From the human T2T-CHM13v2.0 reference genome, Homo sapiens, in NCBI GenBank assembly GCA_009914755.4, contig CP068257.2, positions 34,080,001 through 34,144,000 of the forward strand: a stretch of 64,000 bases of DNA, in the 5' to 3' direction. Of the stretch, positions 7,274-57,200 are shown piece by piece. Every line of letters begins with the position of its first letter. The first letter of the stretch is position 1. The notes under the pieces are model-generated. The model was given only the letters and a program-made list of their open reading frames with translations, did not search any database and was not told where the DNA came from. The position numbers and the translations under genes are program-made.

Positions 7274-8087
7274 AAGAAAAAAAGAAAAAAGGAAGAAATA
7301 GGACATGAAGGAATGAAGGAAGGAAGGAAGAGAGAGAGAGAGAGAGAGAGAAAGAAAGAAAGAAAGAAAGAAAGAAAGGAGGGAGGGAGGGAAGGAAAAG
7401 AAAGAAAGGAAGGAAAGAAGGGAGGGAGGGAGAGAAAGAAGAAAGAAAAAGAAAGGAATGAAAGAAAGAGAAAGGGAACGAAAGAAAGGAAAAAGAGATA
7501 GAAAAGAGAGACAGAGACAGAGAGGAAGGAAAGAAAGAAGGAAGAAAGGGAGGGAAAAGAAAAGCAAAGAAGGAGAAAAGAGAAGGAAGGAAGAAAGGAA
7601 GGAAGGAAGGAAGAAAGGGAAAAGGGAAAGGATGGAGGGAAGGAAGGGAGGGAGGGAAAGAAAGAGAAAAGAGAAGGAAAGAGAGAGAGACAGACAGAAA
7701 AGAAAAGAAAAAAGAAAGAAAGAGAAAGAAAGAAAGGAAGAAAGGAAGGAAGGAAGGGGGAGGGAGGGAGGGAAGAAGGAAGGAAAGAAGGAAGGAAAAG
7801 AAAGAGAAAGGAAAGAAGGAGGGAAGGAAGGAAGGGAGGGAGGGAAAGAAAGAGAAAGAAGAAAGAGACAGAAAGAGACAGAGACAGAGAGAGGAAGGAA
7901 GAAGGAAGGCAGGAAGGAAGGATGGAGAAAGAAGGAAGGAAGGAAGGAAAGAAGGAAGGGGGAGGGAAGAAGGAGAAAAGGAAGGAAGAAAGGGGAAGAA
8001 AGGAAGGAAGGAAAGGAGGGAGGGTGGGAAAAGAAAAGAAAAAAGAAAAGGAAGGAAGGAAGAAGAGAAAGAAAGAAATAAAAGAAA
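7274..8087 (+). repeat. ~814-bp near-pure homopurine tract (GA/GGAA/GAAA/AGAGA-type compound microsatellite), polypyrimidine on the minus strand
   Basis: Almost exclusively G and A on the + strand. Degenerate motifs such as (GAAA)n, (GGAA)n, (GA)n and (GGGA)n make up the tract. It starts at the A-rich tail of the Alu at 6998. Confidence 0.95.
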
Positions 8088-12432: not shown

Positions 12433-12486
12433 ACCACTTCAAAGTTTGATGTTTGTATTTATCCTGAGAGACAAGTGAAATAAGCA

Positions 12487-12608
12487 TTATTATCCTTTTT
12501 TTACAGATAAATGAAGTGAGACACAGAGGTTCAGTGACTTTCTCAGACTTTCTTGTGACTGAATAAACAGCCCAGGGAAAGAAGTTTTGAACCTCCTGAG
12601 TTCCAGGT
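12487..12608 (-). mobile_element. MIR SINE fragment (minus orientation)
   Basis: 'ttattatcctttttttacagataaatgaagtgagacacagaggttcagtgac ... gtgactgaataaacagcccagggaaagaagttttgaacc' resembles the MIR reverse-complement core 'ccccattttacagatgaggaaactgaggcacagagaggttaagtgacttgcccaaggtcacacagc...'. Confidence 0.6.
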
Positions 12609-20571: not shown

Positions 20572-21250
20572 GCAGCATAGCATGGTGGTTAAGAGCACAG
20601 ACCCAAGACGTCATGGATTTGAATCCTGGCTCTACCAGTGTTATGGGTTGAATGTGTTCTCACCCTCCAAAATCCACATGTTGAAGTCCTAATCCCTAGC
20701 ACCTCAGAATGTGACATTATTTGGAGATAGGGTCTTTACAGAAGGTAATCAAATAAAAATGAGGTGATTAGGGTGGGCCCTAATGCAATATAACTGGTGT
20801 TCTTATATAAAAGAAGGAATCTGGACACATAAACAAGCACACAGGGAGACTGCCCTGTGATGATAAAGACTGAGATTGGGGTGATGTGTCTAAAAGCCAA
20901 GGAATGCGAAAGACTGCAGCAACTCCCAGAAGCTGGGGGAGAGCCAGGAACAGATCCTCCCTCACAGCCTCAGCAGGAACCACACCTGCTGACCCCTTGA
21001 TCTTGGACTTCTGGCCTCCAGAGCTGTGAGAGAATAAATTTCTGTTGTTTAAAGCACCTAGTCTGTGCTACTTTGGGCAGCCCTGGCGAGGTCACGCAGC
21101 CACTCACCATCTATCTGTGTGACTCTGGCATGGCTTCTCCTTGCCCTGTCTGTAACATGTAGATGACAATAAATGTCTAAGTCAGAGGGTCGTTAGGAAC
21201 ACTAATTAAATAAATTAACATATGCAAGTGTTTCAAATAGAAGTTGACGC
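20572..21250 (+). mobile_element. MIR SINE (plus orientation), split by a nested LTR insertion
   Basis: The 5' part 'ggcagcatagcatggtggttaagagcacagacccaagacgtcatggatttgaatcctggctctaccag' runs 20572-20638. The 3' part 'gccactcaccatctatctgtgtgactctggcatggcttctccttgccctgtctgtaacatgtagatgacaataaatgtctaagtcagagggtcgttaggaacactaattaaataaattaacatatgcaagtg' runs ~21085-21235. Both match the MIR consensus. Confidence 0.75.
20639..21080 (+). mobile_element. MLT1-family MaLR solitary LTR (plus orientation), inserted into the MIR above
   Basis: 'ccaaaatccacatgttgaagtcctaatccctagcacctcagaatgtgacattatttggagatagggtctttacagaaggtaatcaaataaaaatgaggtgattagggtgggccctaatgcaatataactggtgttcttatataaaagaaggaatctggacacataaacaagcacacagggagactgccctgtgatgataaagactgagat ... 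cttggacttctggcctccagagctgtgagagaataaatttctgttgtttaaagcacctagtctgtgctactttgggcagccctggcgaggtca' matches the MLT1 LTR consensus. Confidence 0.8.
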
Positions 21251-21269
21251 AAAGAAAGAGGTATATGAA

Positions 21270-21651
21270 TGTATTAGTCCGTTCTCACGCTGCTATAAGG
21301 GCATACCAGAGACTGGGTAATTTACAAAGGAAAGAGGTTTAATTGACTCACAGTTCCGCAGGGCTGAGGAGGCCTCAGGAAACTTACAATCATGGCGGAA
21401 GGAGAAGCAAACATGTCCTTTTTAAAATGGCAGTAGCAAAGAGACGTGCAGAGCAAAAGGGGGAAAAGCCCCTTATAAAACCATCAGATCTCGCGAGAAC
21501 TCACTCACCATCACGAGAACAGCAACATGGAGATAACCGCCCCCATGATTCAATTACCTCCCACCAGGTCCTTCCCATGCATGACATGTGGGGATTATGG
21601 GAACTACAATTCAAGATGAGATGTGGTTGGGGACACAGACAAACCATATCA
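21270..21651 (-). mobile_element. THE1-type MaLR solitary LTR (minus orientation) with a 5-bp TSD 'atgaa'
   Basis: It reads as the reverse complement of the THE1 consensus: 'tgtattagtccgttctcacgctgctataagggcataccagagactgggtaatttacaaaggaaagaggtttaattgactcacagttccgcagggctgaggaggcctcaggaaacttacaatcatggcggaaggagaagcaaacatgtcc ... aaccatcagatctcgcgagaactcactcaccatcacgagaacagcaacatggagataaccgcccccatgattcaattacctcccaccaggtccttcccatgcatgacatgtggggattatgggaactacaattcaagatgagatgtggttggggacacagacaaaccatatca'. It has TG...CA termini, and 'atgaa' sits on both sides (21265-21269 and 21652-21656). Confidence 0.85.
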
Positions 21652-22352: not shown

Positions 22353-24166
22353 AAATAAAAGAAGGCATTTAAGAGATTAGCTCACCAATGGGATTTTTCA
22401 CAAAGAATGATAATTTTCCTAAATTACAAGGCACAGGCTTAAGAATAGAGAACATCCATTCATACTGGGTGACAGCCATAGAATGCTAAGCAAACCCCTT
22501 CCACCACTGACTTCTTTGATTTTAATTAATGTATATATGCTCTGCCTTTTTGTTTCCAGAAAGAATTTCAGGTAATTCCTGATTGCAGGCCGCAGAAGCC
22601 AAGAAATAAAAGACTTCTTACCCGAACTAATGTGACTTTACTTTCCAGCTCATGGATTTGCCCCTAGATCTGTGAAGCAGCCACAAGTGGCCTAGCTGTT
22701 CTGGGTGTTTTATACCTTTTTTGGCCTTAATGCTTATTTGCAAGGTTCATGTCAAGTTACAGGCTGATGTGATGAAATGACTTTTTCCCATTTGGAAAAT
22801 AAGATTATTCTTAGTAGCTTGTTTCAGTCTTGATTAAAAGATAGATGTAAAATATTCAAAGAATGATGTCTGAAGACTTAAAGATAAAATTTACATGGAA
22901 GCCACTAGTTTAAAGAGATTCAGTCAGCTCCTCCAGCTCTTGTTTTTCTAAAGAAAATTTGAATAGCATATGCTTTTCATTGTGCTCCTTTTCAGCCATT
23001 TACATATTGGGGAAATATATATTTGGCAACTGGTCCTATTTTTAGGAGTCCTTGAAACTTGCCCTTTGAAAATGTTTTCATTTTTGGCACATATGTGTGT
23101 CTTAAGCAGAATGAAAACACAAAGTAAAAAAGAAAAATATGTACAAAAAGGAATGATTTTTCCAGCCCTATGTAGCACAATAAGAAAGCAATCATTCAGT
23201 GGTGACTTTAAAAAATGGATTCTTGCCTGGATTTTCCAACGATTTCCTTCTAAGTGAGCGTTTCTCTGCAGAACTGAACTAATGTAAAGAGACAGTTTGT
23301 TCCAGTGCCAGAAATGAACCAGCAAAAAAAAGGACGGAGGCTCTATTTTCATAGGAGGAAGTTAACAAAATAATACCCACTCTGTTTCTCTGCAGCCTCT
23401 TGTGTCATTTCAGAAGAAAGTGCCATATGCCCATTGCGTGATTTGAAGCATGTATTCCCAGCCTGACTCTTGGTCACCACTCGTTCTGTTATTTGCAGTC
23501 AGTAACAAAGATTCATCCTTGTGTCCATCATGCAACAAGGAGAATCTTTGTCACTTAGTGTAATTAATAGCTGGACCTTGCAAAGGAAGGTGGGAGAAGG
23601 AAGCCGTTCATGCATAGACCTGGATAAATTCAGAACAGGCTTTGCGGATCTTTGCTGCCTTTTGACCAATTAAGGTGCCAGAGCCCCAGCAGAAGAGGAA
23701 ATATGGTAAACAAAGTGTTTTCTCTGGGGCTGTGTGTGTTATAATCCCAAGCTCTGTAACTGTGGTTCAGGAGAGCTCTCTAACTTTCCCTATCAAGCCA
23801 GATGACCATCGACTCCCCTCTACGTCTATGTCCTATTTCAGTGTATCCTTCCCACTTTCCTTCCACCACACTGTCTTCACCAGCCTCTAGATAGATACCA
23901 CTATAGGATAAAAATCAAAAAGAGAGGCCTTATGTTTGATGAGTGCCTCCCCTAGACTATGTGGTTAAATCACTCAGCAAGCTTTCAGAGAATGTGTAAT
24001 GGGCCCTGTTTTCAAAATGAGAGGACTGAAAAGAGGTTTAGAGAGGCCAGCGCTGAGGTTAGGCTCAGGGAACAGATAGAAATAGCCGATTCAGGACCAC
24101 ATCAAGGGCTCTCTAATGCCGGGATTCTTAGCTCACTTTTCCCTGTATTGTGATCTTTTCTTTCAC

Positions 24167-25012: not shown

Positions 25013-25378
25013 TGTGTTAGCCTGTTTTCACACTGCTGATAAAGACATACCTGAAACTGGGCAATTTACAAAAGAAAGATGTTTAATTGGACTCACAGTT
25101 CCACGTGACTGGGGAGGCCTCACAATCATGATGGAAGGCAAAGAGGAGCAAGACACATCTTACACGGATGGCAGCAGGCAAAGAGAGAGCTTGTGCAGAG
25201 AAACTTGTTTTTAAAACCATCAGACCTTGTAAGACTCATTCACTGTCATGAGAACAGCACAGGAAAGATCGGCCCCCTTAATACAATCACCTCCCACTGG
25301 GGTCCTCCCATGACGTGTGGGAATTGTGAGAGTTACAATTCAAGATGAGATTTGGGTGGGGACACAGCCAAACCATAG
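25013..25378 (-). mobile_element. THE1-type MaLR solitary LTR (minus orientation) with a 5-bp TSD 'ccatc'
   Basis: 'tgtgttagcctgttttcacactgctgataaagacatacctgaaactgggcaatttacaaaagaaagatgtttaattggactcacagttccacgtgactggggaggcctcacaatcatgatggaaggcaaagaggagcaagacacatcttacacggatggcagcaggcaaagagagagcttgtgcag ... aaaccatcagaccttgtaagactcattcactgtcatgagaacagcacaggaaagatcggcccccttaatacaatcacctcccactggggtcctcccatgacgtgtgggaattgtgagagttacaattcaagatgagatttgggtggggacacagccaaaccatagca'. 'ccatc' lies at 25008-25012 and 25379-25383. Confidence 0.85.
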
Positions 25379-25684
25379 CACCATCTTTTCAAGGATCCTT
25401 TTCCACACATCTCACAGGGTCTGCTCCTGTCCTAGCTGGCTGAACAGTCATCCTAGGCTTCCAAAGTATTGCCAGTCAATGTTCATAGCTCTCTTTATCC
25501 AATTTGGGAACTCATCACTGCCTCTGAAACCCAGCTGCTTCATGATAGGCTGCAGCAATAACAATTTTGGAGGCCCAGCCCCTCCATGAGTTTGTTCTGA
25601 TTTGGGGTGTGCCCATTTGTGCTCTACCTAAGCTCCTGAGGTTAGGGACTCCTGTTAGTCTTAGTGACTCTATGTGTATAATAA

Positions 25685-33775: not shown

Positions 33776-34084
33776 CATTTGGGTCAGTTGGGCAGGAGGA
33801 TGGCTGCACCTGTAAAGATAAGCTATCAATTTGCATTGCCATGGTGAAATTTTAACAGAAACACCTTAGAGTAAAGATCTTGCAGCTCACCAGGAATTTA
33901 CTTGTAGGCAAAATATGGGGGAGACATGTAGCTTTTCATCTTGTAGCCATCTTATTTAGGAATGAAAAACGGGGAGGCAGGTTTGGGTGACCCCGTCCCT
34001 AGCTCCACTTTTCCCTTTGGCTTAATGAGTTTGGGGTCCCAAGATTTAATTTCCTTTCACAATATCATTCTATTCTAAGCCACT

Positions 34085-34285
34085 GAAATGTGTTAACTCA
34101 TTTAATCCTCACAACAACCTTGTAAGAGAAGTATATGATTACTTCCAGTTTATAATACAAATGAAGAAATCAAAGCCCAGACAGAATAAGTAACTTGCCC
34201 AAGGTCATGCAACTGGTAAGCCACTGAATTTGAACCCAGGAAATTTGACTTCAAAGACCACATTCTTAATTACCACACTCAACTT
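34085..34285 (-). mobile_element. MIR SINE (minus orientation)
   Basis: 'catttaatcctcacaacaaccttgtaagagaagtatatgattacttccagtttataatacaaatgaagaaatcaaagcccagacagaataagtaacttgcccaaggtcatgcaactggtaagccactgaatttgaacccaggaaatttgacttcaaagaccacattcttaattaccacactc' matches the MIR reverse complement. Confidence 0.8.
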
Positions 34286-36016
34286 CTCAACTGCACCATC
34301 CTAAGACCCAGACATCAACCTTCATCTGTTAGCCAGTTAGAACAATTCAAATTATCCTGGTTGAGTGGCCTGGATGTCACTACAGATGCGATATTGCCTT
34401 TGTTTACAATCCCATTGTCTAAGCTTCATAAGGCAAACCCCTATTGAAAAGTCAAGTTTACTCCATGGTTGCTATTAAATTTCTGGGGCCATGTTCAGCA
34501 TTTGTTCTTTTCACCCCCGTCAAATGAACTGGATAGACTAAGCAACTAATTGATTTTCTCCATAAAATCTTCAACAATTTTCTCATAACCCAAAATGATC
34601 TCTCCCCTCTAAATCCATTATGAATCATCAGGTGGTGTTCGGCTTCCATAACAATAGACAATGTGCCATTTCCTTGCACATAATCCCTGGGTGGCAGGAC
34701 CTAAGATTTGTTCGGTTGGCTTAGCTCATACTTCACATAGATTCTGATCAAGAAATCTATTTTCCCCTCTCTGGGAAGCAGGAGATCCACGGCTGGCTTT
34801 CATGGAAAACAAGCAACCACTTATCTCATGGGCTTTCCAGTCTCAAAAGAAAGCCCCACAGCTATAATAGGGAGGGTGCTGTAGTAGAGGTTATAGAAGT
34901 AGTAGTAGTAATAGTCTCATAGCACCAGTAATAGGCGTAGTGGCTAACATTTCACCAAGTATCAGGTCCGACTTTAAATACTTTACCTCATCACATCCCT
35001 ATGATGTAAGTACTGTCGTATCCCATTTTATAAATGAGAAGGCTGAGGCACAAAATAAGGCAGGTATGTGGGCCCTTGGAAAGTCAGATTTTGCAGCCAC
35101 CTTGTATTGGTCAGACAGTCTTACCACTGTAGCAAACAACCCCACTTCTCAGTAGTGTCACCTAATGAAGATTCATCCCCCAGTCATAGCACAGTCTGAT
35201 GAGATACTCAGCAGCATCCTTCCACAAGGTGATTCAGAAGCCCTGGGCCCTCCCTCCTAGAGGCTCCATCATCCTCTGGTCTTTGGAGTTCTCCGTGGAC
35301 CATGTCCAGTTGACAGAGAATAAGGAGGCCTGAAATATGGTCTCCTGTGTGATCAAGAGAAAAATGAACACATTGATGAACACACGGTATGCTCTCAGAG
35401 CAATCTTAGAAGCGTGGGTCACTTAGGGACAGAGGATAGACAGCAAGAGAAGAATGCTGGCCCCGACCACCTCTCCAGTGTGAATGCCACCTTCCCTCCC
35501 TCACCGTTCCCCAAGCAGAGAACCAACATTCACACAAATCGGATTATGACTTCTCGTGTTTTCAAGAACGGTCAGTCCTCTGAGTCTTCCAGGCCAGAGT
35601 CTCCCTCCACAACTAAACGCAGAAGTGGGGTGGAATAAAGGACAGAGGTACGTGAACTTTCTCTGACTCACCTGGGCTTCGGCCGGAAATAAGCAAAGTG
35701 CTGATACCTGACGTAGCCGTGACCTGGGCAAGGTATTGTTTCACATGATCCTGTTCCTGAGTGCTTAGGCAAGGCTCGACCAGCCTGAGTCTCACTCTGG
35801 CTCCTACCACACCTTGTTTATTAAGTCATAAAACTTTCATGAAGTTAAGCCAGGCATAGCGGGGCTCATCTGACTACAGCTACAAGCCTCCAGAAGAGTG
35901 CTGGCACTAAGACAGACATTTGTCGAAGGGTGACTACCTCTCTGCTTGCCATTCAATTATGTCCTGTTTGTTATGAATTTTATTTGATTCCTCCATCAGA
36001 ATTTCCTTTCCAATTA

Positions 36017-37742: not shown

Positions 37743-38371
37743 AGTGCTATGTTACACACTGGGGTTGGAGGGCTAAATCAGAAGTGATCTCTGCCCTTGA
37801 GGAGGGAGTCAGACTAAGGGTTCCCCTACAAGATGGTCAACGTGATGACAGACACGCAGGAAGAACAGAGGACTGTACTTCAATGTCCTGGGGACAGGGA
37901 TGGGATCTGGCATATGTAAGAGGAAACAGCCAACCTCAGGTGTAAGCAGAGTAGAATACAAGAGAGAAATAATTAGCAGAAGGTTTGCCAAGATGTCACG
38001 GGGGAAGTATGTGGATAGAACAAAGGCCGGGGGAACGGGGGAATGTGTGGAAGAAGAGTCTGGCCTGATGTAACTCAGAGGCCACGCAAGAGGCACGGAG
38101 CAGGCGAACTTTCACCTGCTGACTGTTCTAGAAAGCAGCACATCTGAGGCGTTCTTCACTCTCTTTGGTGATAACTTCTTCTATCCGAATGTAGAGGAGA
38201 CCATGAGAAATGCTACCTAGGATGAAGTTCTGATTAACCAAGATAAACCATCTCTGGGAGAGTAGAAGTGGCAGAAATACAGAAGAAAGCTTCTACCATC
38301 ACCTTGGAGTTTCACAGCCAGGCAGGAGAGTGAATTTGAAAAAGGCTAAAGAAAGCTCAGAAAAAAAATTA

Positions 38372-38690
38372 CGGCCAGGTGTGATGGCTCACGCCTGTAA
38401 CCCCAGAACTTTAGGAGGCCGACACGGGCAGATCACTTCAGATCAGGAATTGGATACCAGCCTGGCCAACCATGGTGAAACCCCCCCTCTACTAAAAATA
38501 CAAAAATTAGCTGGGTGTGGTGGCATGCACTTGTAATCCCTAGCTACTCGGGAGGCTAAGGCATGAGAGTTGCTTGAAACTGGGAGGCGGAGGTTGCAGG
38601 AAGCTGAGATAACACCACTGCACTCCAGCCCGGGTGACAGAGTGAGACTCCATCTCAAAAATAAATAAATAAATAAAAAATAAAAAATAA
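38372..38690 (+). mobile_element. Alu SINE (plus), first of a head-to-tail tandem pair
   Basis: 'ggccaggtgtgatggctcacgcctgtaaccccagaactttaggaggccgacacgggcagatcacttcagatcaggaattggataccagcctggccaaccatggtgaaaccccccctctactaaaaatacaaaaattagctgggtgtggtggcatgcacttgtaatccctagctactcgggaggctaaggcatgagagttgcttgaaactgggaggcggaggttgcaggaagctgagataacaccactgcactccagcccgggtgacagagtgagactccatctcaaaaataaataaataaataaaaaataaaaaataa'. Confidence 0.9.
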
Positions 38691-38986
38691 GGCCAGGCAC
38701 GGTGGCTGACACCTGTAATCCCAGCACTTTGGGAGGCCAAGGCAGGTGGATCACAAGGTCAGGAGATCGAGACCATCCTGGCTAACACGGTGAAACCCCG
38801 TCTCTACTAAAAATTTTGAAAAATTAGCCAGGCGTGATGGTGGGCGCCTGTAATCCCAGCTACTCGGGCGGCTAACGCAGAAGAATGGCATGAACCCACG
38901 GGCGGAGCTTGCAGTGAGCGCAGATCATGCCACTGTACTCCAGCCTGGGTGACAGAGCAAGACTCCGTCTCAAAGAAAAAAAAAAT
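38691..38986 (+). mobile_element. Alu SINE (plus), second of the tandem pair, inserted into or next to the A-rich tail of the first
   Basis: 'ggccaggcacggtggctgacacctgtaatcccagcactttgggaggccaaggcaggtggatcacaaggtcaggagatcgagaccatcctggctaacacggtgaaaccccgtctctactaaaaattttgaaaaattagccaggcgtgatggtgggcgcctgtaatcccagctactcgggcggctaacgcagaagaatggcatgaacccacgggcggagcttgcagtgagcgcagatcatgccactgtactccagcctgggtgacagagcaagactccgtctcaaagaaaaaaaaaa'. Confidence 0.9.
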
Positions 38987-39337
38987 ATTACATAGACTTC
39001 CATGGACAAAGTCATGAGAAACGAAGACAATTCAAGAGAAATTCAAGGCTCCAGAAAAGTGAAATTGGTTGTAGTGATACAGTCAGAAATAATGCCTATA
39101 TGACTACTTAAAAACATCTTGCATTAAAAACATTTTAGAAATTATTAATAGAAAGTTATAAAAATGAAATTAAAATCACTCACAATTTCATTAACCGGAA
39201 GTTTTTTCTCCAATAAATACACTTAAATTGGAAAATAGTATAAACAGTACATCCTACTTTTCTTTCACTTAGTATAAGAGTATCTGCCATTAATTTAGCT
39301 TTCTTTGAAAAATGTGACTTTTCCAAAAAAATAACAG

Positions 39338-42904: not shown

Positions 42905-44279
42905 TAGCGAAGATAAGATACTTTCTTATGATTCTTGCAATATTTTGAAAGATGACACCAATCAACATGATACAGTACAGGGTATTCCTTGATTAATTCA
43001 TAAACATTATAGGACAGTCTAATGTGCCAAGTATACTCACAACTAGAGAGGCAAATATGAATAAGACTTCAATGAGCTCCACAGGAAGCCTGGTAGATAG
43101 AGAAGTCTCTTACAACAGAGGGAGATAAGAGATATGATCATATGTATATATGCACTCCTTCCCTGGGAGTCAGAGAGGGGTAAAATTTTTTCTCCTAGAT
43201 TGCCAAAAGTAGAGACAATAAGAGCAATAATAGCTAACTAGAAGCTTCTGTTTTAGGGTGCAACATAAAAGCTCCAGGAATGGCTTTTTCTGATATCTCA
43301 TTGTCCTGAATTTACTCTGACCACCACACCTAGCTGCAAAGGAGGCGGGAAAATGCAGTTTCTCTCTGAGCAGCCATTGCCACCTGAAGGATAGAGTTTC
43401 TATTACCAAAAGGAAGAAAGGAAAGACAACTCTGGGGAACAGGTAGCAGGTTGTGCACGTCATTTTAAACTATTGCCATGTAGGAGTCGAAAAGGAACCA
43501 TAACATCAGAAAATAGCCATCAGCACGACCGTTTCTGTTGAGTGTGCAAGGCATAAGGCCATGTACTCTACAGCCTGCAACAAAAGGTAAGGCATTTTCT
43601 CATTTTTTGCATTAAAATTGTTTATAATCATTTACTATTTTATAACAAATATTTATAATAATGTTTCATTTATTTTCTCATCAAAAGAGAGAGCAATACA
43701 AGCTGTATGAGTTTTGTTCAAAAAGTAGTAGAGAATTTAAGAGCAAGGAGAAGGAAAGGAGATGAAATAAGCTTTGAGTCAGCAGACTCATGGAAAGATA
43801 GCAAAAGCAAGAAAGATCATCCAAATCAGAGTTAGCTGTTGTGATGGGCTGTTTCCTCAGTCATCTGTGAGCCCTGTCAGTGGAGGTTGTGTTTTATTTA
43901 TCTTTGTGTGCTGAGCGCCCAGTAGGGCTCATTTCCTGGCATTTGATTATGCTAAAGTGAGGGAAAGAACACTTTATTGGCCTTTAAATAATGAATAGAA
44001 TGCACTAAGGGCTATCACAGAAGAGCCATTTGACCTTGACCTCACAATCACAGGGTCTCAAATTTTAACTTTCAAGACACTTATATGACATATATAGATG
44101 ACACGCATAGTTGAAAGATGATGATATTCATCATATAACTTTGATTTCCTGTGTTATTACCAGGCCACACCACATGTTATACACAATAAATTGGTTTTTA
44201 TAAACCCTATAAATATCTTGTGCCCAACACCATTATCCTGAGTTGAACAGTTTGTCTTTAGGTTAAAAAGAATTTGTTT

Positions 44280-45872: not shown

Positions 45873-47556
45873 CACAATGGCAAAAACAATAATCCTTCTT
45901 CAAGCCTAAGTTTCACACATATCAGCAATATTGGCATAAGAAGCAGATTTTGTAAAACTGCAATTCAGTTTTACAAAATCTAGGCTCTCTCACCTTTCCC
46001 AACTATGCTTTTCCTCTCCATGACAATGTCTACGTCTGTGACTTCCGTGAACAACTGCTGAGATGCAGGGTTGACTTCCAGATCTTCAATTCCAGCCTCA
46101 ACCTCTCTCCTGGGCCTGCAAGTCATATGCCACTGCCTGTGAGGAGCTGACACTTGGGTATCTCAAACTTGGGCACTTCAACCTCAGCGCATTCAAACCT
46201 ATGCTCGTCAACTCACTCCAGACCTGCTCTTCCTTCAAGTTCTCCTGGTCAGTTAGAGACATTACCACCTTTCTTGGTGCTCCAGCTAAACATCAGGGCA
46301 TCACCAACCCCATATCTGATCCCCCTCCAAATCTCATTGATTCTGTCTCCTGTGTTCTCAAATCCACACACTGATATTACCTCATCCAGCCAACTCTGAT
46401 TCCTCTTCTGCACAATAACTTTCTAACTGGCCCCTCTGCATCCATTCTTGTCCCTGAATTACCCATTCTTCCCTCTGCAGCCAAAAGTACTTAAATATCC
46501 TTTCCCTTATTCATTCGACAAATATTTATGAAGTATCTATCACAAGTTAGGGCACCATGCCAAGTACAGTATATAGTGGTGAGCAAAAGAGCTGTAGCTC
46601 CCATCTTCATGGAGTAGACATGAATCTGATTGTCATCTCTGTGCTTAGTATCTGCGGCTTGCAGAAGACAGCCCCCAAAGATGTCCACGTCCTCATGGAA
46701 CGGGGGCACAAGCTAAAACATGCAAGCAGCCAGCAAAAGCTGGAAAAGACAAGAAAAAGTATCCTCCTGTAGAGCTTCCTGAAAGAACACAGCACTGCCA
46801 ACACCTTGATCCTAGCCCAGTGAGACCCAGTTTGGACTTAGACTCTCTAGAACTATGCTGTTTTAAGCCACAAAGTATATGATAATTAGGACAACCATAG
46901 AAAACTAATATGTTGGTTTACTAATATTCATAGTATCAAAACAGCACAGTATCCTTCAATAGCTTCCCAGTGCCTTTGGGATAAAGCAGAATCCTTAGCA
47001 AGGATGGCAAGGCTCTTGTGAACTGCCCTGCCAGCCACAGCCTCACCTGGCCACTCTCATTTCCTCTGTCCACTGCCAGAAAGCTAAACTGCTTCCAGCT
47101 CTCAAAGGAGCTCTTCTTTCTGAGCCTGGAACAAACTCTTCCCACTTCCTGGAACACCCCCTCCCTTCCTCCCTGCTTTATCTGCTGCACACCTACTCCC
47201 AACTTCAACCTTCAAGTTAAAGACCCTCAGCCTGTTCATGTTAGAGGTGCCCATGCTCCCTTTACTTACCTGTTCACACCTGTCTCTGTATGTTTTAATG
47301 TCTCTAATCCCCACTTAATTAAAAACTAGAGGGCAGAGTCTAGGATTCTCTTATTCACCATCGTGAATGCCTACGATGGTGGGCACTCAACACAAATTTT
47401 CAAAATGTATGAATGCACCAATAAGGGACAAAAGGTAAGTTTCTCTTTCATCTAAAGCATAGTTCCCATTGTGTACATCTGGCCACTTGTCATACTCAAA
47501 CAGCTGCTTTATCATCCAAAATCGTTTTGACATCTTAAATTTTGATTGCTTTACCT

Positions 47557-49085: not shown

Positions 49086-52000
49086 TCACCACCCATTTTT
49101 ATACTAAATATGGGCATGCTCAGCCCTTGGTCATGTTCACTAGTGGGTGTGTGATTTAGTGTGGTAATGAGCATATAATTAGGTATGAGGTAGGGCATAC
49201 GGGCAAATCCAATGCCATGTTGGATCTAGCCAGGTTCAACCAGCTTAGCCCTCACCCTGCTTGTGAGGGTCTTATCAGCCCAAGCTCATCCTTGTCCTTG
49301 TAGCTAATTCTAACAGCTCCTTTCTTGCTGCTGTGTGAAATTGCTGCTTGATATTTTCCCACTTCTCTGGTGACCACCCAGCATTCTTATTTTATGGGTG
49401 TTTCTTTAATTAGGAAATGGAATAATCATTAGATATTCTGGAAAAAGAGGGAATTTCAGGGACCCCTGTTTACCAATCCCTTTCTCCCTTATTTGGATTT
49501 GCCTGGAAGAGACACGGACCTGTCACCCTGACCAGGGTTTTGGCCATTTTCTCTCCCTTATTTTGGGTTTTCTGTTATCCTGCAGCTTCTTTGGCTATTA
49601 GAAATGTGTTTCAACAGTCTAAACTAGAACTAAGTATAACGTGATAATGCCCCAAAAGTAGAGTGTTGGGGACGGAGAAGACCGATGCAAATAATGATGA
49701 TAACTTTAATGATAAATTAGTGGTGCATATGTGTAACAGACACATCTAAACTGAGTTAATGTGGAGACAAGGTAGAGAGATGTTGCCTCCAGTCTTGAAG
49801 CCCATCCAGCCAGTTTCTGTTGCAAAAAAAGTCCTCAGTCAAGTTAAATGAAGGAATGAAAATGAGATGAGAAGAGAGATGGCAGCACCAATTCTCCTCC
49901 TTCTTCTCTTCCAGTCTTAACATTCTGCACCCCATTCCTTGTTATTTATTTTCAAGGAAAACTTGAATTTTGAATAGCCAAGTTTTCTTTGCTTACCATG
50001 CACATTAAGGTATGACTCTGGGCAGCCCAGGACAATAGCTCCGAATCCTGTGCTTTCCAGTGCCTTAGAGAAACACACACTGGACCTCCATGGATACAAT
50101 GGGAAAACAGCAGGATTGAGAGCAGGTCCAGACTGCCATAGTCTCAAGGCTCTGCTTCTAAGATCTGCAGAATCACACAGGGAAACGCTATGGGACTCTA
50201 AGGCTTCATGATACTCCTGACTGGGAAGCCAAACTCTCCTCCTGATCAGACTCAGGTCACCTCCTGTAGCCACTCTCAGCATTCCAGTACAATTCCCACT
50301 ACAGAAGCACACCTCACTAGAGCAACAGAGAACTTAGCCCTTCCCAGAACACAAGAATCTGAGGACAAGTTCACTCCTCAGATGTGTTGATCTAAGGCAA
50401 AACATTGTCTGTGCGCCCCCCAATGCACACTCCTCACCACCATCTCATTTTTTATTTTGGTGTGTCTCAAAGAAAAATTTAACCTCAATGGCACCTGTGA
50501 AGAAGAAGAAAAGTCACAAGTGGAAGGAGTGGAAGTAGGAAAAAAATGGAATAGAAATGGTAGCTCAAAGACGCATGAATGAGCCCTAAATTAATTTTCA
50601 CATTAGCTGGAGCACCACGCATTTATAGAGTTACAACCCATCCACCAGCAGCAACACGGGGCTCCACTGCCTCCCCAGGGTAATATCATCTATTTACCAT
50701 GACAAAAAGATCTGTCTCAAACAAGGAGCTAGTTTGGATGTTAGTCACTTCCAAATATCAGTTTGATAGCATTATAATGGACTAAGTGTTGATTTCAGCT
50801 CATTGGTAAACCGAACACTTCATAGAGTCATTTGAAACAGAAAAATTAAGCAGGTAAATGTTGGGATAAAAAAAAAATTAACAAATCTTCAAATAGGAAA
50901 TGCATTTATTAAATTAATTGCGTAGGAAAATGACAGAAAAGGTAGGAAGAGAGAAAGGACATTTCCCTAGACACAAAATGTCTTAGAGGCCTGGAGCAGG
51001 ACACTCGAGCCTAAAATAACTCTCGATTCCTTAGGTTCCATGTCTTTTAGCAGAAGCTAACTTTTCTGGCTCAGAGTGTATAACTGAACTCCAGTGTGAA
51101 ATATTGAAAGAAAATGACTACAGAGGACCTATTTAGACATTCCTGGCAAGAGCCAGGTTAGAGGAGAGGAGGGAAAGGGCTGTTTATCTTGACAGAGGAT
51201 TTCCTTACCAGAACATGGAAAACATTCTTTTTGTCAAATATGGTTAATAGTCACCCAGTAACACAAAGAGCAGTTTCAGTAGCTTAACATCAACATGGGG
51301 TGACTGGGAAAGCTGACCGTGCCCCAGCAGATGGAACATGTGCTAACTCACAGCCATGTCTTGGATGGGGACAGTGTTGTTGATGAGTGCATAGGAAAAA
51401 TATCATTAGCTAGTACACTTTCCACCAAGGAAAATGTTGTCACCTACTTACTAGGTAATGTAGACATGCCCAACCAAAAATGAGGCAAGCAGCAATATTA
51501 ACACATCCTCAAAATGCCTTGAAAGACCCGGCTGCCTTTTCAAATAGGAAGAACAGAGGATGCCCTCACACATACAACTTCCCCATTCTGATGGGAATGA
51601 CTGACTTTTTGTAGCATTGCAACCAACTCCCTCGCTAAGCTCTGTGGGTATTTCCCCTGGAGGTTGAGGCCTCTGAACAGAACATCTGTGATGAGAACAG
51701 TATGGAGTAATGGAAACATCTTGGATTTTAGACTTGGTTATGTAGCTTCTAGCCCTGAGTCTGCCACTGACTGGGTTTTCTGAAACAATTCAGAGTCTCT
51801 CTGGGCCACAGTTTCCTGAAAACCTTCTCAATTCCAATATGTAAAAAGACAGTCACAGAGATAGAAACCCTCTTAAAGGTTATGTATATTAGAGATAAAG
51901 CCCTGAGCTAACCTTCTAGTTTCAAGTCAAATATCAATATTAAGGTTTGGTTTTGTTTTCAAAGACATCCAACATTTTTGTTTCATTCTTCAGGTTTCAG

Positions 52001-53344: not shown

Positions 53345-53480
53345 TATATTTCATTTTATTTTCACAACAACCCATGAAGTGATAAACATCATTCCCATTT
53401 TACAGATAAGGAAACCGCAGCTCAGAAAGGAAAAAGCTTGTCCATGGCCACTAAACTAGTAAGCAGTCTCTCACCTCCAA
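53345..53480 (-). mobile_element. MIR SINE fragment (minus orientation)
   Basis: 'ttcacaacaacccatgaagtgataaacatcattcccattttacagataaggaaaccgcagctcagaaaggaaaaagcttgtccatggccactaaactagtaagcagtctctcacctccaaacc'. Confidence 0.75.
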
Positions 53481-54313: not shown

Positions 54314-55470
54314 TTGACTACATTCAGGTGCAATGGATAAGAACATAGGTTTTATATTCAGACAATATAAGGTTTAATACCAATCTTCACAATTTACTAA
54401 GTGGCCTACCATGAGAAGTTTCTTAATTGCTCTAAGTAGGACTGCATTTCTTCCTCCTCTATACACTGGAGACAGTCAACTTGTAAGGTTGTTGAAAAGA
54501 TGAGATGAGATTGTGTGTATGAAGTGCTGAACAAAGAACATACTGCAGATTCAATGAGTGGCTTTGCACTCATCTCTGTAAATAAACACAGTATCTATCT
54601 CCTTAAGGCATCATGTGAACAACCGGAAAGCTGTGCATTTGGAGTGGATGCTGGGATGCACCCACCTCAGATCCCCTTCAATAAAGGACTAGTAGCCCCA
54701 GCTGCAGTCAGTGTCCACAGAAGCCTTCAGTTCCCAGGGCCTGCAGGAGTGGCCTCAGAGGCCTCAGTCATGCCCTTCCTGATTGATTGGGAAGGAGTAT
54801 AAAAGCCTGGCCATCTTAGCTCCAGTCAGAACTCTGAGGTTCATTTGAGCTCCAGAGTCCCCTGTGGGGCTGACTGAGGCTGCAACTCAACTTCTTTCCT
54901 GCCCACTCCTGCCCCCATCCAACAGGTGTTGCTTCCAGCCCGAGGACTCTCCCCAGTGAACGTGCTGCATGCCAAGGTCTGCCCTCTTAGTGAGCCCAAC
55001 CATGACATCTCAAGACTTGGAGAAAATGTCTAGAACTGTCTGACATAAAATGCCATGATATTCCCATGGCAATAAGCCTCGAAGATAAAGGTCTAGGAAA
55101 GTGGGGAGAGGTTTTTGAGAATTTCCACTGGAGGGTGCTGTCTTTGGTGGACAAAGTTATATTTCCATGGTGGTAGTAGTTGCAATAAGAAAAACCTGAG
55201 TTCTCTGGTGCACCGATTACGGAGATGTTTAAACTCATCTTTATAGCTCAGTGCCCTGGGCAGCTACCCAGCTGGCCCATCCCATAACCCATCTCTGATT
55301 CCAAAAGCTCCTTCAAGTCTTGGTAGATAGGAAACAGGGCATCAAAATGACACCTAAGTCCAGCCCAAGGAAAACACTAGGTTGTTGCAGAGGAGAAGCA
55401 GCAACCAGGGTAGATGCTGAGTAAAGACCTTCTGATGTGTAACCAGGCTTATCCCCAGAAAGGGGGTTAA

Positions 55471-56589: not shown

Positions 56590-57200
56590 GCTTGTTTCAC
56601 ACATTCAGCCAACAAAATTTTTATCAAGTACCAACTTTGCACCAGACACTCCTATAAATGCTGCATTTGCAACATTGAACAAGATCTTCAAAGTCCTTTC
56701 CCACGTGGAGTTGATATTCTGGTGGGTGAAACCAAAACACAAATAATCAAATAAATACCTAGTATAACATCAGGTGGGAATAAGAGATAGATCTGGTTGG
56801 GAGCTGTTGCTTTACAAAAGGGCATCTCATAAATCTCTCTCGAAGGAGGGGGCATTTGCTATATAGGCCAGAGTAATACATCCCTATTTTTTCTTACATT
56901 ATTGAAAATTATTGGAAGGCTATAAGCAATGGAATGATATCATCTGATTATGCTTGTTAAGACTCACTCTGGCTGCCTGTAGATGCATTTTAGGACAAGA
57001 GTAGAAGCCTAGAGCTATGGGAAAAAGAGATGGTAGAGATCAGAGAAGTATATACAGATTTGCAATGTTTTGGAGGCTGAAGCAAAAGGATCACTAACAG
57101 CTTGAGTAGAGGTTTTGAGGGAGAGAAGGAAATCAAGGAGAACAGCCACTTTTTGGCTTGAGCTGAAGTGGTTAGCGGTACCATTTACTAGAACATTCCT
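56590..57200 (+). mobile_element. Old mammalian interspersed repeat (family uncertain, a 'ttatcaagtaccaactttgcaccagacactc...' type element)
   Basis: 'atttttatcaagtaccaactttgcaccagacactcctataaatgctgcatttgcaacattgaacaagatcttcaaagtcctttcccacgtggagttgatattctggtgggtgaaaccaaaacacaaataatcaaataaatacc ... gtgggaataagagatag ... gggcatttgctatataggccagag' parallels a common repeat consensus of the form 'tatttattgagcacctactatgtgccaggcactgtgctaggtgctggg...cctgccctcatggagcttacattctagtggg...gacaataaacaaataaa...'. Confidence 0.4.

What the first reader, a model, noticed from the sequence alone, without database searches (positions are those of the whole stretch)
35340..35800. CpG-retaining non-repeat block with ETS-, CRE- and AP-1-like motifs and splice-donor-like GTGAGT/GTACGT: a candidate promoter or unannotated first exon
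In a window where CpG is otherwise almost gone, this ~460-bp repeat-free segment keeps ~14 CpGs. Examples are 'cacacggtatg', 'gaagcgtggg', 'ccccgaccacc', 'caccgttcc', 'aaatcggattatgacttctcgtgttttcaagaacggtcag', 'aaacgcagaag', 'ggtacgtgaac', 'gcttcggccggaaataagc', 'tgacgtagccgtgacc' and 'ggctcgaccagcc'. The CpG observed/expected ratio is roughly 0.5, against ~0.2 for the surroundings. It contains 'ccggaaat' (an ETS-like core), 'tgacgtag' (a CRE/ATF half-site-like motif) and 'tgactca'/'tgagtca' (AP-1-like). Consensus-like 5' splice sites occur on both strands. On the plus strand, 'gacagag|gtacgtg' lies at ~35645. On the minus strand, 'gcccag|gtgagtcag' lies at ~35680. CpG retention in non-repeat DNA implies germline hypomethylation or selective constraint. 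The pattern fits a weak CpG-island promoter or the TSS of a lncRNA or alternative first exon, perhaps bidirectional.
Basis: inference. Interest (0 to 1): 0.5.

Follow-up and report, generated by a model that had tools for sequence, protein, structure and literature searches.

The report
Small CpG-retaining patch near MIR802
A roughly 300-400 bp stretch of primate non-coding DNA, 12 kb from the microRNA gene mir-802 in the gene desert upstream of RUNX1, has lost fewer CpG dinucleotides than its surroundings; it is most likely an ordinary small regulatory element or a statistical outlier, and nothing in the sequence shows it to be a promoter or an exon.

Summary
The sequence facts hold. Window 35340-35800 has 14 CpGs, GC 0.51 and CpG O/E 0.47, against 0.19 for the window and 0.16 for non-Alu DNA. 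It is the most CpG-dense non-Alu stretch in the 64 kb, and a simulation produces such a patch by chance in about 2% of comparable windows. The signal is concentrated in 35486-35754. That core passes only the loosest CpG-island rule (200 bp) and fails at 300 bp, 500 bp and Takai-Jones.

Each quoted transcription-factor motif occurs once, at chance level. Their tight cluster at 35650-35725 is unusual (top 0.3%), but three of its four motif types contain CpG, so it is not independent evidence. The plus-strand splice sites are ordinary. The minus-strand CAG|GTGAGT is a perfect donor with no acceptor upstream.

The block is not coding, not a structured RNA, not a CTCF site, and not Alu, MIR, L2 or THE1. 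Only its left ~60 bp overlap an old LTR-like tail.

mir-802 at 23483-23576 places the window in the RUNX1 upstream regulatory desert. My best reading is a small germline low-methylated, factor-bound distal element (confidence about 0.4). Promoter or first-exon status cannot be tested here. Interest is low.

The parts
35340..35800 (.). Block as flagged: 14 CpGs, GC 0.508, CpG O/E 0.47
   Evidence: It is the top non-Alu 461-bp window. Family-wise P is about 0.02.
35486..35754 (.). CpG-dense core. It is the only part where 200-bp windows reach GC >= 0.5 and O/E >= 0.6 (maximum 0.75). CpG density is 3.7 per 100 bp.
   Evidence: TpG+CpA O/E is lowest here.
35650..35725 (.). Tight motif cluster: TACGTG (35650), TGACTCA (35664), CCGGAA (35683), TGACG (35709), TGACCT (35720)
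   Evidence: Four panel motif types fall within 60 bp, which is the top 0.32% of the window. Three of the four contain CpG.
35666..35674 (-). Perfect 5' splice-site consensus CAG|GTGAGT. It overlaps the AP-1-like heptamer. There is no usable acceptor upstream of it on this strand.
   Evidence: 3 such 9-mers in the window; score 12.6, top 2 of all GT sites; no minus-strand acceptor between 35672 and 36100.
35645..35653 (+). Donor-like GAG|GTACGT; ordinary
   Evidence: 86 sites as good or better in the window.
35494..35518 (+). Pyrimidine tract plus AG, acceptor-like (an exon would start at 35516); ordinary
   Evidence: 203 sites as good or better.
35323..35401 (+). 3' tail of an old LTR-like repeat overlapping the left edge of the block
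   Evidence: 35323-35382 aligns to the recalled fragment with z = 5.4 and 0 of 300 shuffles as good; the extension to 35401 is by eye. The fragment was recalled from memory and validated only by a second copy at 43282-43371.
35324..35638 (+). Longest open frame through the block (104 codons plus stop); not coding
   Evidence: No Pfam family. No hit among 1.84 billion protein representatives.

Best explanation
The block is a small patch of unique non-coding DNA in the RUNX1 upstream regulatory desert, 12 kb downstream of mir-802, where CpGs have decayed about three times more slowly than in the surrounding DNA.

The most likely cause (inferred) is that this ~270-400 bp stretch is a low-methylated region in the germline or early embryo, kept that way by bound transcription factors. 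The sites would be the CpG-containing ones clustered at 35650-35725: TACGTG, CCGGAA and TGACGT, beside an AP-1 heptamer. Less methylation means less deamination of 5-methylcytosine, so CpGs persist and TpG/CpA do not build up.

Functionally that makes it a distal, enhancer-type element rather than a CpG-island promoter.

Shown: the CpG excess, its location, the matching TpG/CpA dip, the motif cluster, and the absence of coding, RNA-family, CTCF or common-repeat signals.

Inferred: hypomethylation, factor binding, and any regulatory target (RUNX1, pri-miR-802 or the desert lncRNAs).
For: - CpG O/E is 0.47 against 0.16 for non-Alu background, and this is the top non-Alu window.
- Poisson P is 4.7e-4 against GC-matched windows. 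Family-wise P is about 0.02.
- TpG+CpA O/E dips where CpG peaks.
- Four motif types fall in 60 bp, top 0.32% of the window.
- The core is not Alu, MIR, L2 or THE1, and shows no insertion boundaries, so youth of the sequence is not an evident alternative.
- The locus is a 1.1-Mb regulatory domain with many distal enhancers and open-chromatin sites in the desert.
- Internal calibration shows that local protection from CpG decay does occur in this window. A solo MaLR LTR 2 kb upstream of mir-802 keeps 5 of 11 ancestral CpGs, and its equally diverged sibling keeps 0 of 11.
Against: - No methylation, chromatin, transcription or conservation data could be consulted.
- The excess is modest. Genome-wide, thousands of such patches are expected by chance.
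- Individual motifs are at chance level, and the cluster statistic is not independent of CpG content. I also chose the motif panel after seeing the block.
- An unrecognised repeat cannot be excluded without a full library.
- No orthologous sequence could be obtained.
Confidence: 0.4

Rival explanations
1. There is no function. The patch is a compositional or statistical fluctuation in old, neutrally evolving DNA that is locally richer in G+C.
For: - The family-wise probability is only about 0.02 per 64-kb window under an independence model that probably understates the variance. Across the genome that implies many chance cases.
- CpG count correlates with GC (r = 0.31).
- Each motif is compatible with chance.
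- At 461 bp the block has 6 panel motif types against a mean of 4.7.
- It fails every CpG-island rule above 200 bp.
Against: - It is the single most CpG-dense non-Alu stretch of the window.
- TpG/CpA dips coincide with the CpG peak.
- The CpGs cluster in about 270 bp.
Confidence: 0.28
2. It is a transcription start region with a first exon on the minus strand. Initiation would occur around 35700-35850. A short exon would end at the perfect donor CAG|GTGAGT (intron starts at 35671) and splice towards lower coordinates, on the strand of RUNX1/LOC100506403.
For: - The perfect 9-mer donor is in the top 2 of all GT sites in the window.
- No acceptor lies upstream of it, as expected for a first exon.
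- CpG enrichment extends downstream of it, as is typical of CpG-type promoters.
- A long, poorly characterised ncRNA (LOC100506403) has introns over this desert.
Against: - Three perfect donors occur in the window, so decoys are common.
- CpG content is at the low-CpG/intermediate border: maximum 500-bp O/E is 0.49 at GC 0.50.
- There is no GGGCGG box and no TATA.
- No transcript evidence was available.
- Published promoters near mir-802 lie upstream of the hairpin.
Confidence: 0.14
3. It is a fragment of an interspersed repeat that I could not recognise, for example an LTR. It would be younger or more CpG-rich at origin than its surroundings, so its CpGs simply have had less time to decay.
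For: - The only other comparably CpG-dense non-Alu 461-bp stretch proved to be a solo MaLR LTR.
- Alus in the window have similar CpG density: 2.7 per 100 bp against 3.0 for the block.
- The left edge abuts an LTR-like tail.
- Only five repeat consensi, all recalled from memory, could be tested.
Against: - There is no paralogue in the window.
- There is no match to Alu, MIR, the L2 3' end or THE1.
- TG...CA ends with target-site duplications occur only at the chance rate, and one candidate is contradicted by my by-eye reading that the MIR sequence continues across the proposed junction.
- There are no terminal inverted repeats and no poly(A) tail.
Confidence: 0.15
4. It is a coding exon or a processed pseudogene fragment, with CpGs retained by past coding constraint.
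For: A 104-codon open frame runs through the block on the plus strand.
Against: - No Pfam family matches four frames. The only hit, DUF723 at E = 0.011, is below its curated cut-off.
- The 104-residue frame has zero hits among 1.84 billion protein representatives.
- There is no poly(A) tail.
Confidence: 0.02

Closest known systems
Low-methylated regions / CpG-poor distal regulatory elements (the class described by Stadler et al. 2011; cited from my own knowledge)
   Same: Small size, CpG density only moderately above background, a cluster of factor motifs, and a position far from any annotated promoter inside a large regulatory domain.
   Different: Membership is defined by measured methylation and factor occupancy, and neither could be examined. 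Here only the evolutionary footprint (slower CpG decay) is seen.
CpG-island and intermediate-CpG promoters (Gardiner-Garden & Frommer 1987; Takai & Jones 2002; Weber et al. 2007 classes; from my own knowledge)
   Same: GC is about 0.5, a 270-bp core has O/E >= 0.6, CpG-containing ETS-like and CRE-like motifs are present, and a consensus splice donor lies nearby.
   Different: It fails the criteria at 300 and 500 bp. Maximum 500-bp O/E is 0.49, at the low-CpG/intermediate border. It has no SP1 box and no evidence of initiation.
Distal enhancers of the RUNX1 gene desert (Marsman et al. 2017, PMC5645309; Owens et al. 2022, PMC8828719)
   Same: Same regulatory domain. [quoted passage not shown]
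   Different: [quoted passage not shown] No correspondence with this human block could be established.
Decoy splice sites and pseudo-exons in intronic or intergenic DNA (Sun & Chasin 2000; from my own knowledge)
   Same: The plus-strand acceptor at 35516 and donor at 35648 would frame a 132-nt pseudo-exon. Sites of equal quality occur every 0.6-1.5 kb in the window.
   Different: The minus-strand donor is a perfect consensus, which is rarer (3 per 128 kb of both strands).

Membership tests
CpG island, Gardiner-Garden & Frommer (>=200 bp, GC >= 0.5, O/E >= 0.6) | A 200-bp window with GC >= 0.5 and O/E >= 0.6 | tested here: met
   45 window starts qualify, spanning 35486-35754. Elsewhere in the window the rule is passed by four Alu-overlapping segments and by one other non-Alu segment, 37988-38198.
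CpG island, stricter definitions (Takai & Jones: >=500 bp, GC >= 0.55, O/E >= 0.65) | Length, GC and O/E thresholds at 500 bp | tested here: not met
   No window qualifies. No 300-bp or 500-bp window reaches GC >= 0.5 together with O/E >= 0.6.
Intermediate- or high-CpG promoter (Weber et al. 2007 classes) | A 500-bp window with O/E >= 0.48 (intermediate), or > 0.75 with GC > 0.55 (high) | tested here: inconclusive
   Maximum 500-bp O/E is 0.490 at GC 0.496, exactly at the low/intermediate border. The thresholds are quoted from memory.
Promoter / transcription start site | Evidence of initiation (CAGE, H3K4me3, RNA polymerase II) | not testable with these tools
   No expression or chromatin data were available. 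Core-element scan: no TATA and no GGGCGG.
Exon (first or internal) | Functional splice sites | tested here: inconclusive
   The minus-strand donor is perfect, but decoys exist. The plus-strand sites are ordinary.
Exon (first or internal) | A transcript or splice junction using the sites | not testable with these tools
   No RNA data were available. The paper k-mer search found nothing.
Protein-coding exon or pseudogene | Similarity of a reading frame to known proteins or domains | tested here: not met
   No Pfam family above cut-off. Zero hits among 1.84e9 protein representatives for the 104-residue frame. The minus-strand frames were tested against Pfam only.
   The core matches none of Alu, MIR, the L2 3' end or THE1, and has no paralogue in the window. 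The left edge 35323-35382 matches an LTR-like fragment. Only a handful of consensi recalled from memory could be tested, each validated by finding other copies in the window. No Dfam or RepeatMasker was available.
Low-methylated distal regulatory element | Reduced CpG decay relative to the flanks (evolutionary proxy) | tested here: met
Low-methylated distal regulatory element | Measured hypomethylation, open chromatin, factor occupancy | not testable with these tools
   No such data were available.
CTCF site | CTCF core motif | tested here: not met
   The only match with <=1 mismatch in the window is at 51324.
miRNA or other structured RNA (possible cluster partner of mir-802) | Rfam match, or a hairpin more stable than shuffles | tested here: not met
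   Best Rfam E-values are 3.8-8.3, far below the gathering scores. Fold z-scores run from -0.7 to +1.2.
Recombination hotspot (GC-biased gene conversion) | PRDM9 13-mer CCNCCNTNNCCNC | tested here: not met
   None of the 6 matches in the window lies in the block. Absence of the motif does not exclude a hotspot.

The most novel reading that the evidence does not exclude
The block is an unannotated, weak CpG-type promoter on the RUNX1 strand. Its short first exon ends at the perfect donor CAG|GTGAGT (35666-35674, minus strand) and splices into downstream exons of the desert-spanning ncRNA LOC100506403, or of RUNX1 itself. It would be a far-upstream alternative start about 12 kb from mir-802, possibly interfering with pri-miR-802 transcription on the opposite strand.
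Probability: 0.07. Interest if true: 0.4.

Novelty: already known. Interest (0 to 1): 0.15.

Why it matters
If the patch is a real low-methylated element, it would be one more candidate distal regulatory site in the RUNX1/MIR802 domain. That region carries GWAS signals (hip shape, postoperative nausea, Burkitt lymphoma) and holds long-range enhancers of a leukaemia gene.

That is useful for annotation but not surprising. Such elements number in the hundreds of thousands, and public regulatory catalogues of the human genome would already show whether this one is active.

The practical lesson is methodological. In CpG-depleted DNA, CpG-containing motif "clusters" restate the CpG signal. Same-family repeat copies make a good internal control for local CpG decay, as with the two solo LTRs around mir-802.

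Tried and rejected
1. MIR SINE inside the block. My by-eye match to the tRNA-like head and core gave a Smith-Waterman z of about 2 (13 of 300 shuffles as good). Neither the consensus nor a profile of the window's own MIR copies hit the block, even at maximum sensitivity. Rejected.
2. L2 3' end resemblance. The consensus was validated on 3 window copies but found nothing in the block. Rejected.
3. Solo LTR or other young insertion. TG...CA ends with >=5-bp duplications occur at the chance rate (2 found). One candidate (35103-35809) is contradicted by my by-eye reading that the MIR sequence continues across the junction. No terminal inverted repeats.
4. Paralogues within the window. None were found apart from a 37-bp inverted similarity to 38046-38081, which is too short to interpret.
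5. Orthologous or independent copies through ORF look-ups. Four window ORFs (74-126 aa) are not on record. The collection evidently lacks such intergenic ORFs, so I did not spend the word-indexed protein searches.
6. Exact 28-mer scans of the metagenome and prokaryote-genome contigs found no match.
7. A full-text search of papers for six 17-19-mers from the block found no paper.
8. Coding exon or pseudogene: rejected.
9. CTCF site, miRNA or hairpin and PRDM9 motif: none in the block.
10. My first idea that 21041-21651 was a unique CpG-rich promoter block was revised. It is a solo MaLR LTR, though one with unusual CpG retention.
11. The idea that mir-802 sits inside a MaLR provirus was rejected. 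The two flanking LTRs have separate target-site duplications and are only 76% identical.

Full report
**Where the window comes from.** The window carries 21 Alu hits. It also carries MIR and L2 fragments and THE1/MST-type MaLR LTRs. It has a full-length match to the mir-802 precursor at 23483-23576 on the plus strand (114.6 bits, gathering score 86). It is therefore primate DNA, almost certainly human, from chromosome 21q22.12. [quoted passage not shown] The flagged block lies 11.8 kb downstream of the hairpin on the same strand. From memory only, that is about hg38 chr21:35.7326-35.7330 Mb.

**Check of the observation.**
- Every quoted string is present at the stated place.
- The block 35340-35800 has 14 CpGs, GC 0.508 and CpG O/E 0.472. 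The window as a whole has O/E 0.187.
- A quarter of all CpGs in the window lie in Alus. With Alus masked, the background O/E is 0.16, and only 0.26% of non-Alu 461-bp windows reach 14 CpGs, all of them this block.
- Windows of matched GC (0.48-0.54) average 4.8 CpGs, giving Poisson P = 4.7e-4.
- A simulation that keeps local base composition and the background decay rate gave at least one such stretch in 69 of 3000 trials. That is about 2% per 64-kb window.
- The signal peaks at 35400-35750, with O/E 0.40-0.64 in 150-bp bins. The decay products TpG and CpA are least over-represented there (1.02-1.18 against 1.2-1.5 in the flanks).

The CpG retention is therefore real and internally consistent, but modest. 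Genome-wide, many such patches would arise by chance.

**CpG-island status.** Only 35486-35754 satisfies the loosest definition (200 bp, GC >= 0.5, O/E >= 0.6). No 300-bp or 500-bp window does, and no window meets the Takai-Jones criteria. The best 500-bp window has O/E 0.49 at GC 0.50. By the promoter classes I recall from Weber et al. 2007, that is the border between low-CpG and intermediate-CpG.

**Motifs.**
- The AP-1 heptamer, the CRE half-site and CCGGAA each occur once, and RCGTG occurs twice.
- Against a first-order Markov model of the block itself, the probabilities of seeing at least that many are 0.17, 0.49, 0.12 and 0.24. There is no GGGCGG and no TATA.
- On a fixed panel of 26 common core motifs, the 60 bp from 35650 hold four distinct types, a count reached by 0.32% of 60-bp windows. 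At the 461-bp scale the block has 6 types against a mean of 4.7.
- Three of the four clustered motifs contain CpG, so the cluster largely restates the CpG retention. I also chose the panel after seeing the block.

**Splice sites.** I scored sites with an approximate position-weight matrix recalled from memory.
- The plus-strand donor GAG|GTACGT has 86 equals or betters in the window, and the plus-strand acceptor at 35516 has 203. That is pseudo-exon level.
- The minus-strand CAG|GTGAGT (35666-35674) is a perfect 9-mer consensus. It is one of three in the window and in the top two of all GT sites by score.
- No usable acceptor lies upstream of it on that strand. If it is used at all, it would end a first exon.
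- It overlaps the AP-1 heptamer, so the two 'features' are one sequence.

**Is it coding or an RNA gene?** No to both.
- Four open frames gave no Pfam family above cut-off.
- The longest frame (104 codons, plus strand) had no hit among 1.84 billion protein representatives.
- Rfam gave nothing better than E = 3.8.
- Four 101-nt segments fold no better than shuffles.
- There is no CTCF core motif and no PRDM9 13-mer in the block.

**Is it a repeat?** No repeat library was available. I used consensus sequences recalled from memory and accepted each only after it recovered several copies in the window.
- MIR recovered 7 copies, including 34983-35070 just to the left.
- The L2 3' end recovered 3 copies.
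- THE1/MST recovered 3 copies.
- Alu recovered 21 hits.
- None of these matches 35400-35800, not even with a MIR profile at maximum sensitivity. My by-eye MIR resemblance had z of about 2 and is rejected.
- The block has no paralogue in the window, no LTR-type ends with duplications beyond the chance rate and no terminal inverted repeats.
- Only the left edge is repeat-like. 35323-35382 aligns to an old LTR-type fragment (z = 5.4, 0 of 300 shuffles), which has another copy at 43282-43371. By eye its tail runs to about 35401.

'Non-repeat' therefore stands for the core as far as I could test, but it is not proven.

**A useful internal control.** The only other comparably CpG-dense non-Alu 461-bp stretch (21041-21651) is a solo MaLR LTR at 21270-21651, flanked by the duplication ATGAA. 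A sibling solo LTR lies at 25013-25380, flanked by CCATC. Both are 83-84% identical to the consensus.
- The first copy, 1.8-2.2 kb upstream of mir-802, keeps 5 of the 11 consensus CpGs (O/E 0.43).
- The second copy keeps none (O/E 0.21).
- This is direct evidence that CpG decay is locally slowed at some places in this window. It fits the shared promoter region of Mir802 and its divergent lncRNA described in mouse liver, and the 2-3 kb upstream fragments used as the 'miR-802 promoter'.
- It also shows that the published promoter of this microRNA lies upstream of the hairpin, not at the flagged block.

**Interpretation.**
- Best-supported reading (confidence about 0.4): a small germline low-methylated region maintained by factor binding at the 35650-35725 cluster. 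That is a distal enhancer-type element of the RUNX1/MIR802 domain. Slower deamination explains both the CpG excess and the TpG/CpA dip.
- Rival, about 0.28: a functionless compositional outlier.
- Rival, about 0.15: an unrecognised, younger or CpG-rich repeat fragment.
From memory, that is the strand of RUNX1 and of LOC100506403, a poorly characterised ncRNA whose introns cover the desert.
- Rival, about 0.02: a coding exon or pseudogene, effectively excluded.

None of the first four can be decided without methylomes, chromatin and CAGE tracks, RNA-seq junctions, conservation scores and RepeatMasker. Attempts to obtain related sequences failed.

**Novelty and score.** Whatever the outcome, the object belongs to well-known kinds: a low-methylated distal element, a weak promoter, or a neutral outlier. 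It lies in a heavily annotated genome. A specialist would not be surprised, and no open question becomes testable because of it. Interest is 0.15.

Noticed in passing
window 23483-23576 (+): Full-length mir-802 precursor (Rfam RF00887, 114.6 bits). It identifies the locus as the gene desert upstream of RUNX1 on chromosome 21q22.12.
   Followed up: yes
window 21270-21651 (-) and 25013-25380 (-): Two independent solo THE1/MST-type MaLR LTRs bracket mir-802, with target-site duplications ATGAA and CCATC, and are 76% identical to each other. The upstream copy keeps 5 of 11 ancestral CpGs (O/E 0.43) and the equally diverged downstream copy keeps 0 of 11 (O/E 0.21). This suggests local germline hypomethylation 2 kb upstream of the hairpin, where the pri-miR-802 / divergent lncRNA promoter is expected.
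   Followed up: partly
window 37988-38198: A second non-Alu segment passes the 200-bp CpG-island rule (8 CpGs, GC 0.52). It contains a PRDM9-type 13-mer at 38029-38041 (-) and a 37-bp inverted similarity to the block (38046-38081 against 35577-35611, z = 4.3). Its nature is undetermined.
   Followed up: partly
whole window: The PRDM9-type motif CCNCCNTNNCCNC occurs 6 times against 1.45 expected, and none of 100 shuffles reaches 6. None of the sites is in the flagged block. Unexplained.
   Followed up: no
window 7307-8087: A ~780-bp purine-rich (GAAG)n-type low-complexity array. It explains the strong GC and AT skew at 6-8 kb and the spurious 299-aa and 207-aa ORFs there.
   Followed up: no
window 38364-38987: Two Alu elements in tandem (38372-38655 and 38692-38970), reported by TRF as a 315-bp period with 2 copies. 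Both are relatively CpG-rich.
   Followed up: no
window 34983-35070 (-), by eye to about 35150: A MIR SINE lies immediately left of the block. Further MIR copies are at 34070-34277, 53347-53466, 21045-21272, 20573-20639, 54333-54534 and 12483-12546. L2 3' ends are at 56602-56858, 46509-46621 and 47287-47412.
   Followed up: yes
window 35408-35435 and 35621-35648: A 28-nt direct repeat at 71% identity (AGAAGYG...GGACAGAGG), spaced 213 bp apart inside the block. The second copy ends at the plus-strand donor-like site. Probably chance.
   Followed up: no
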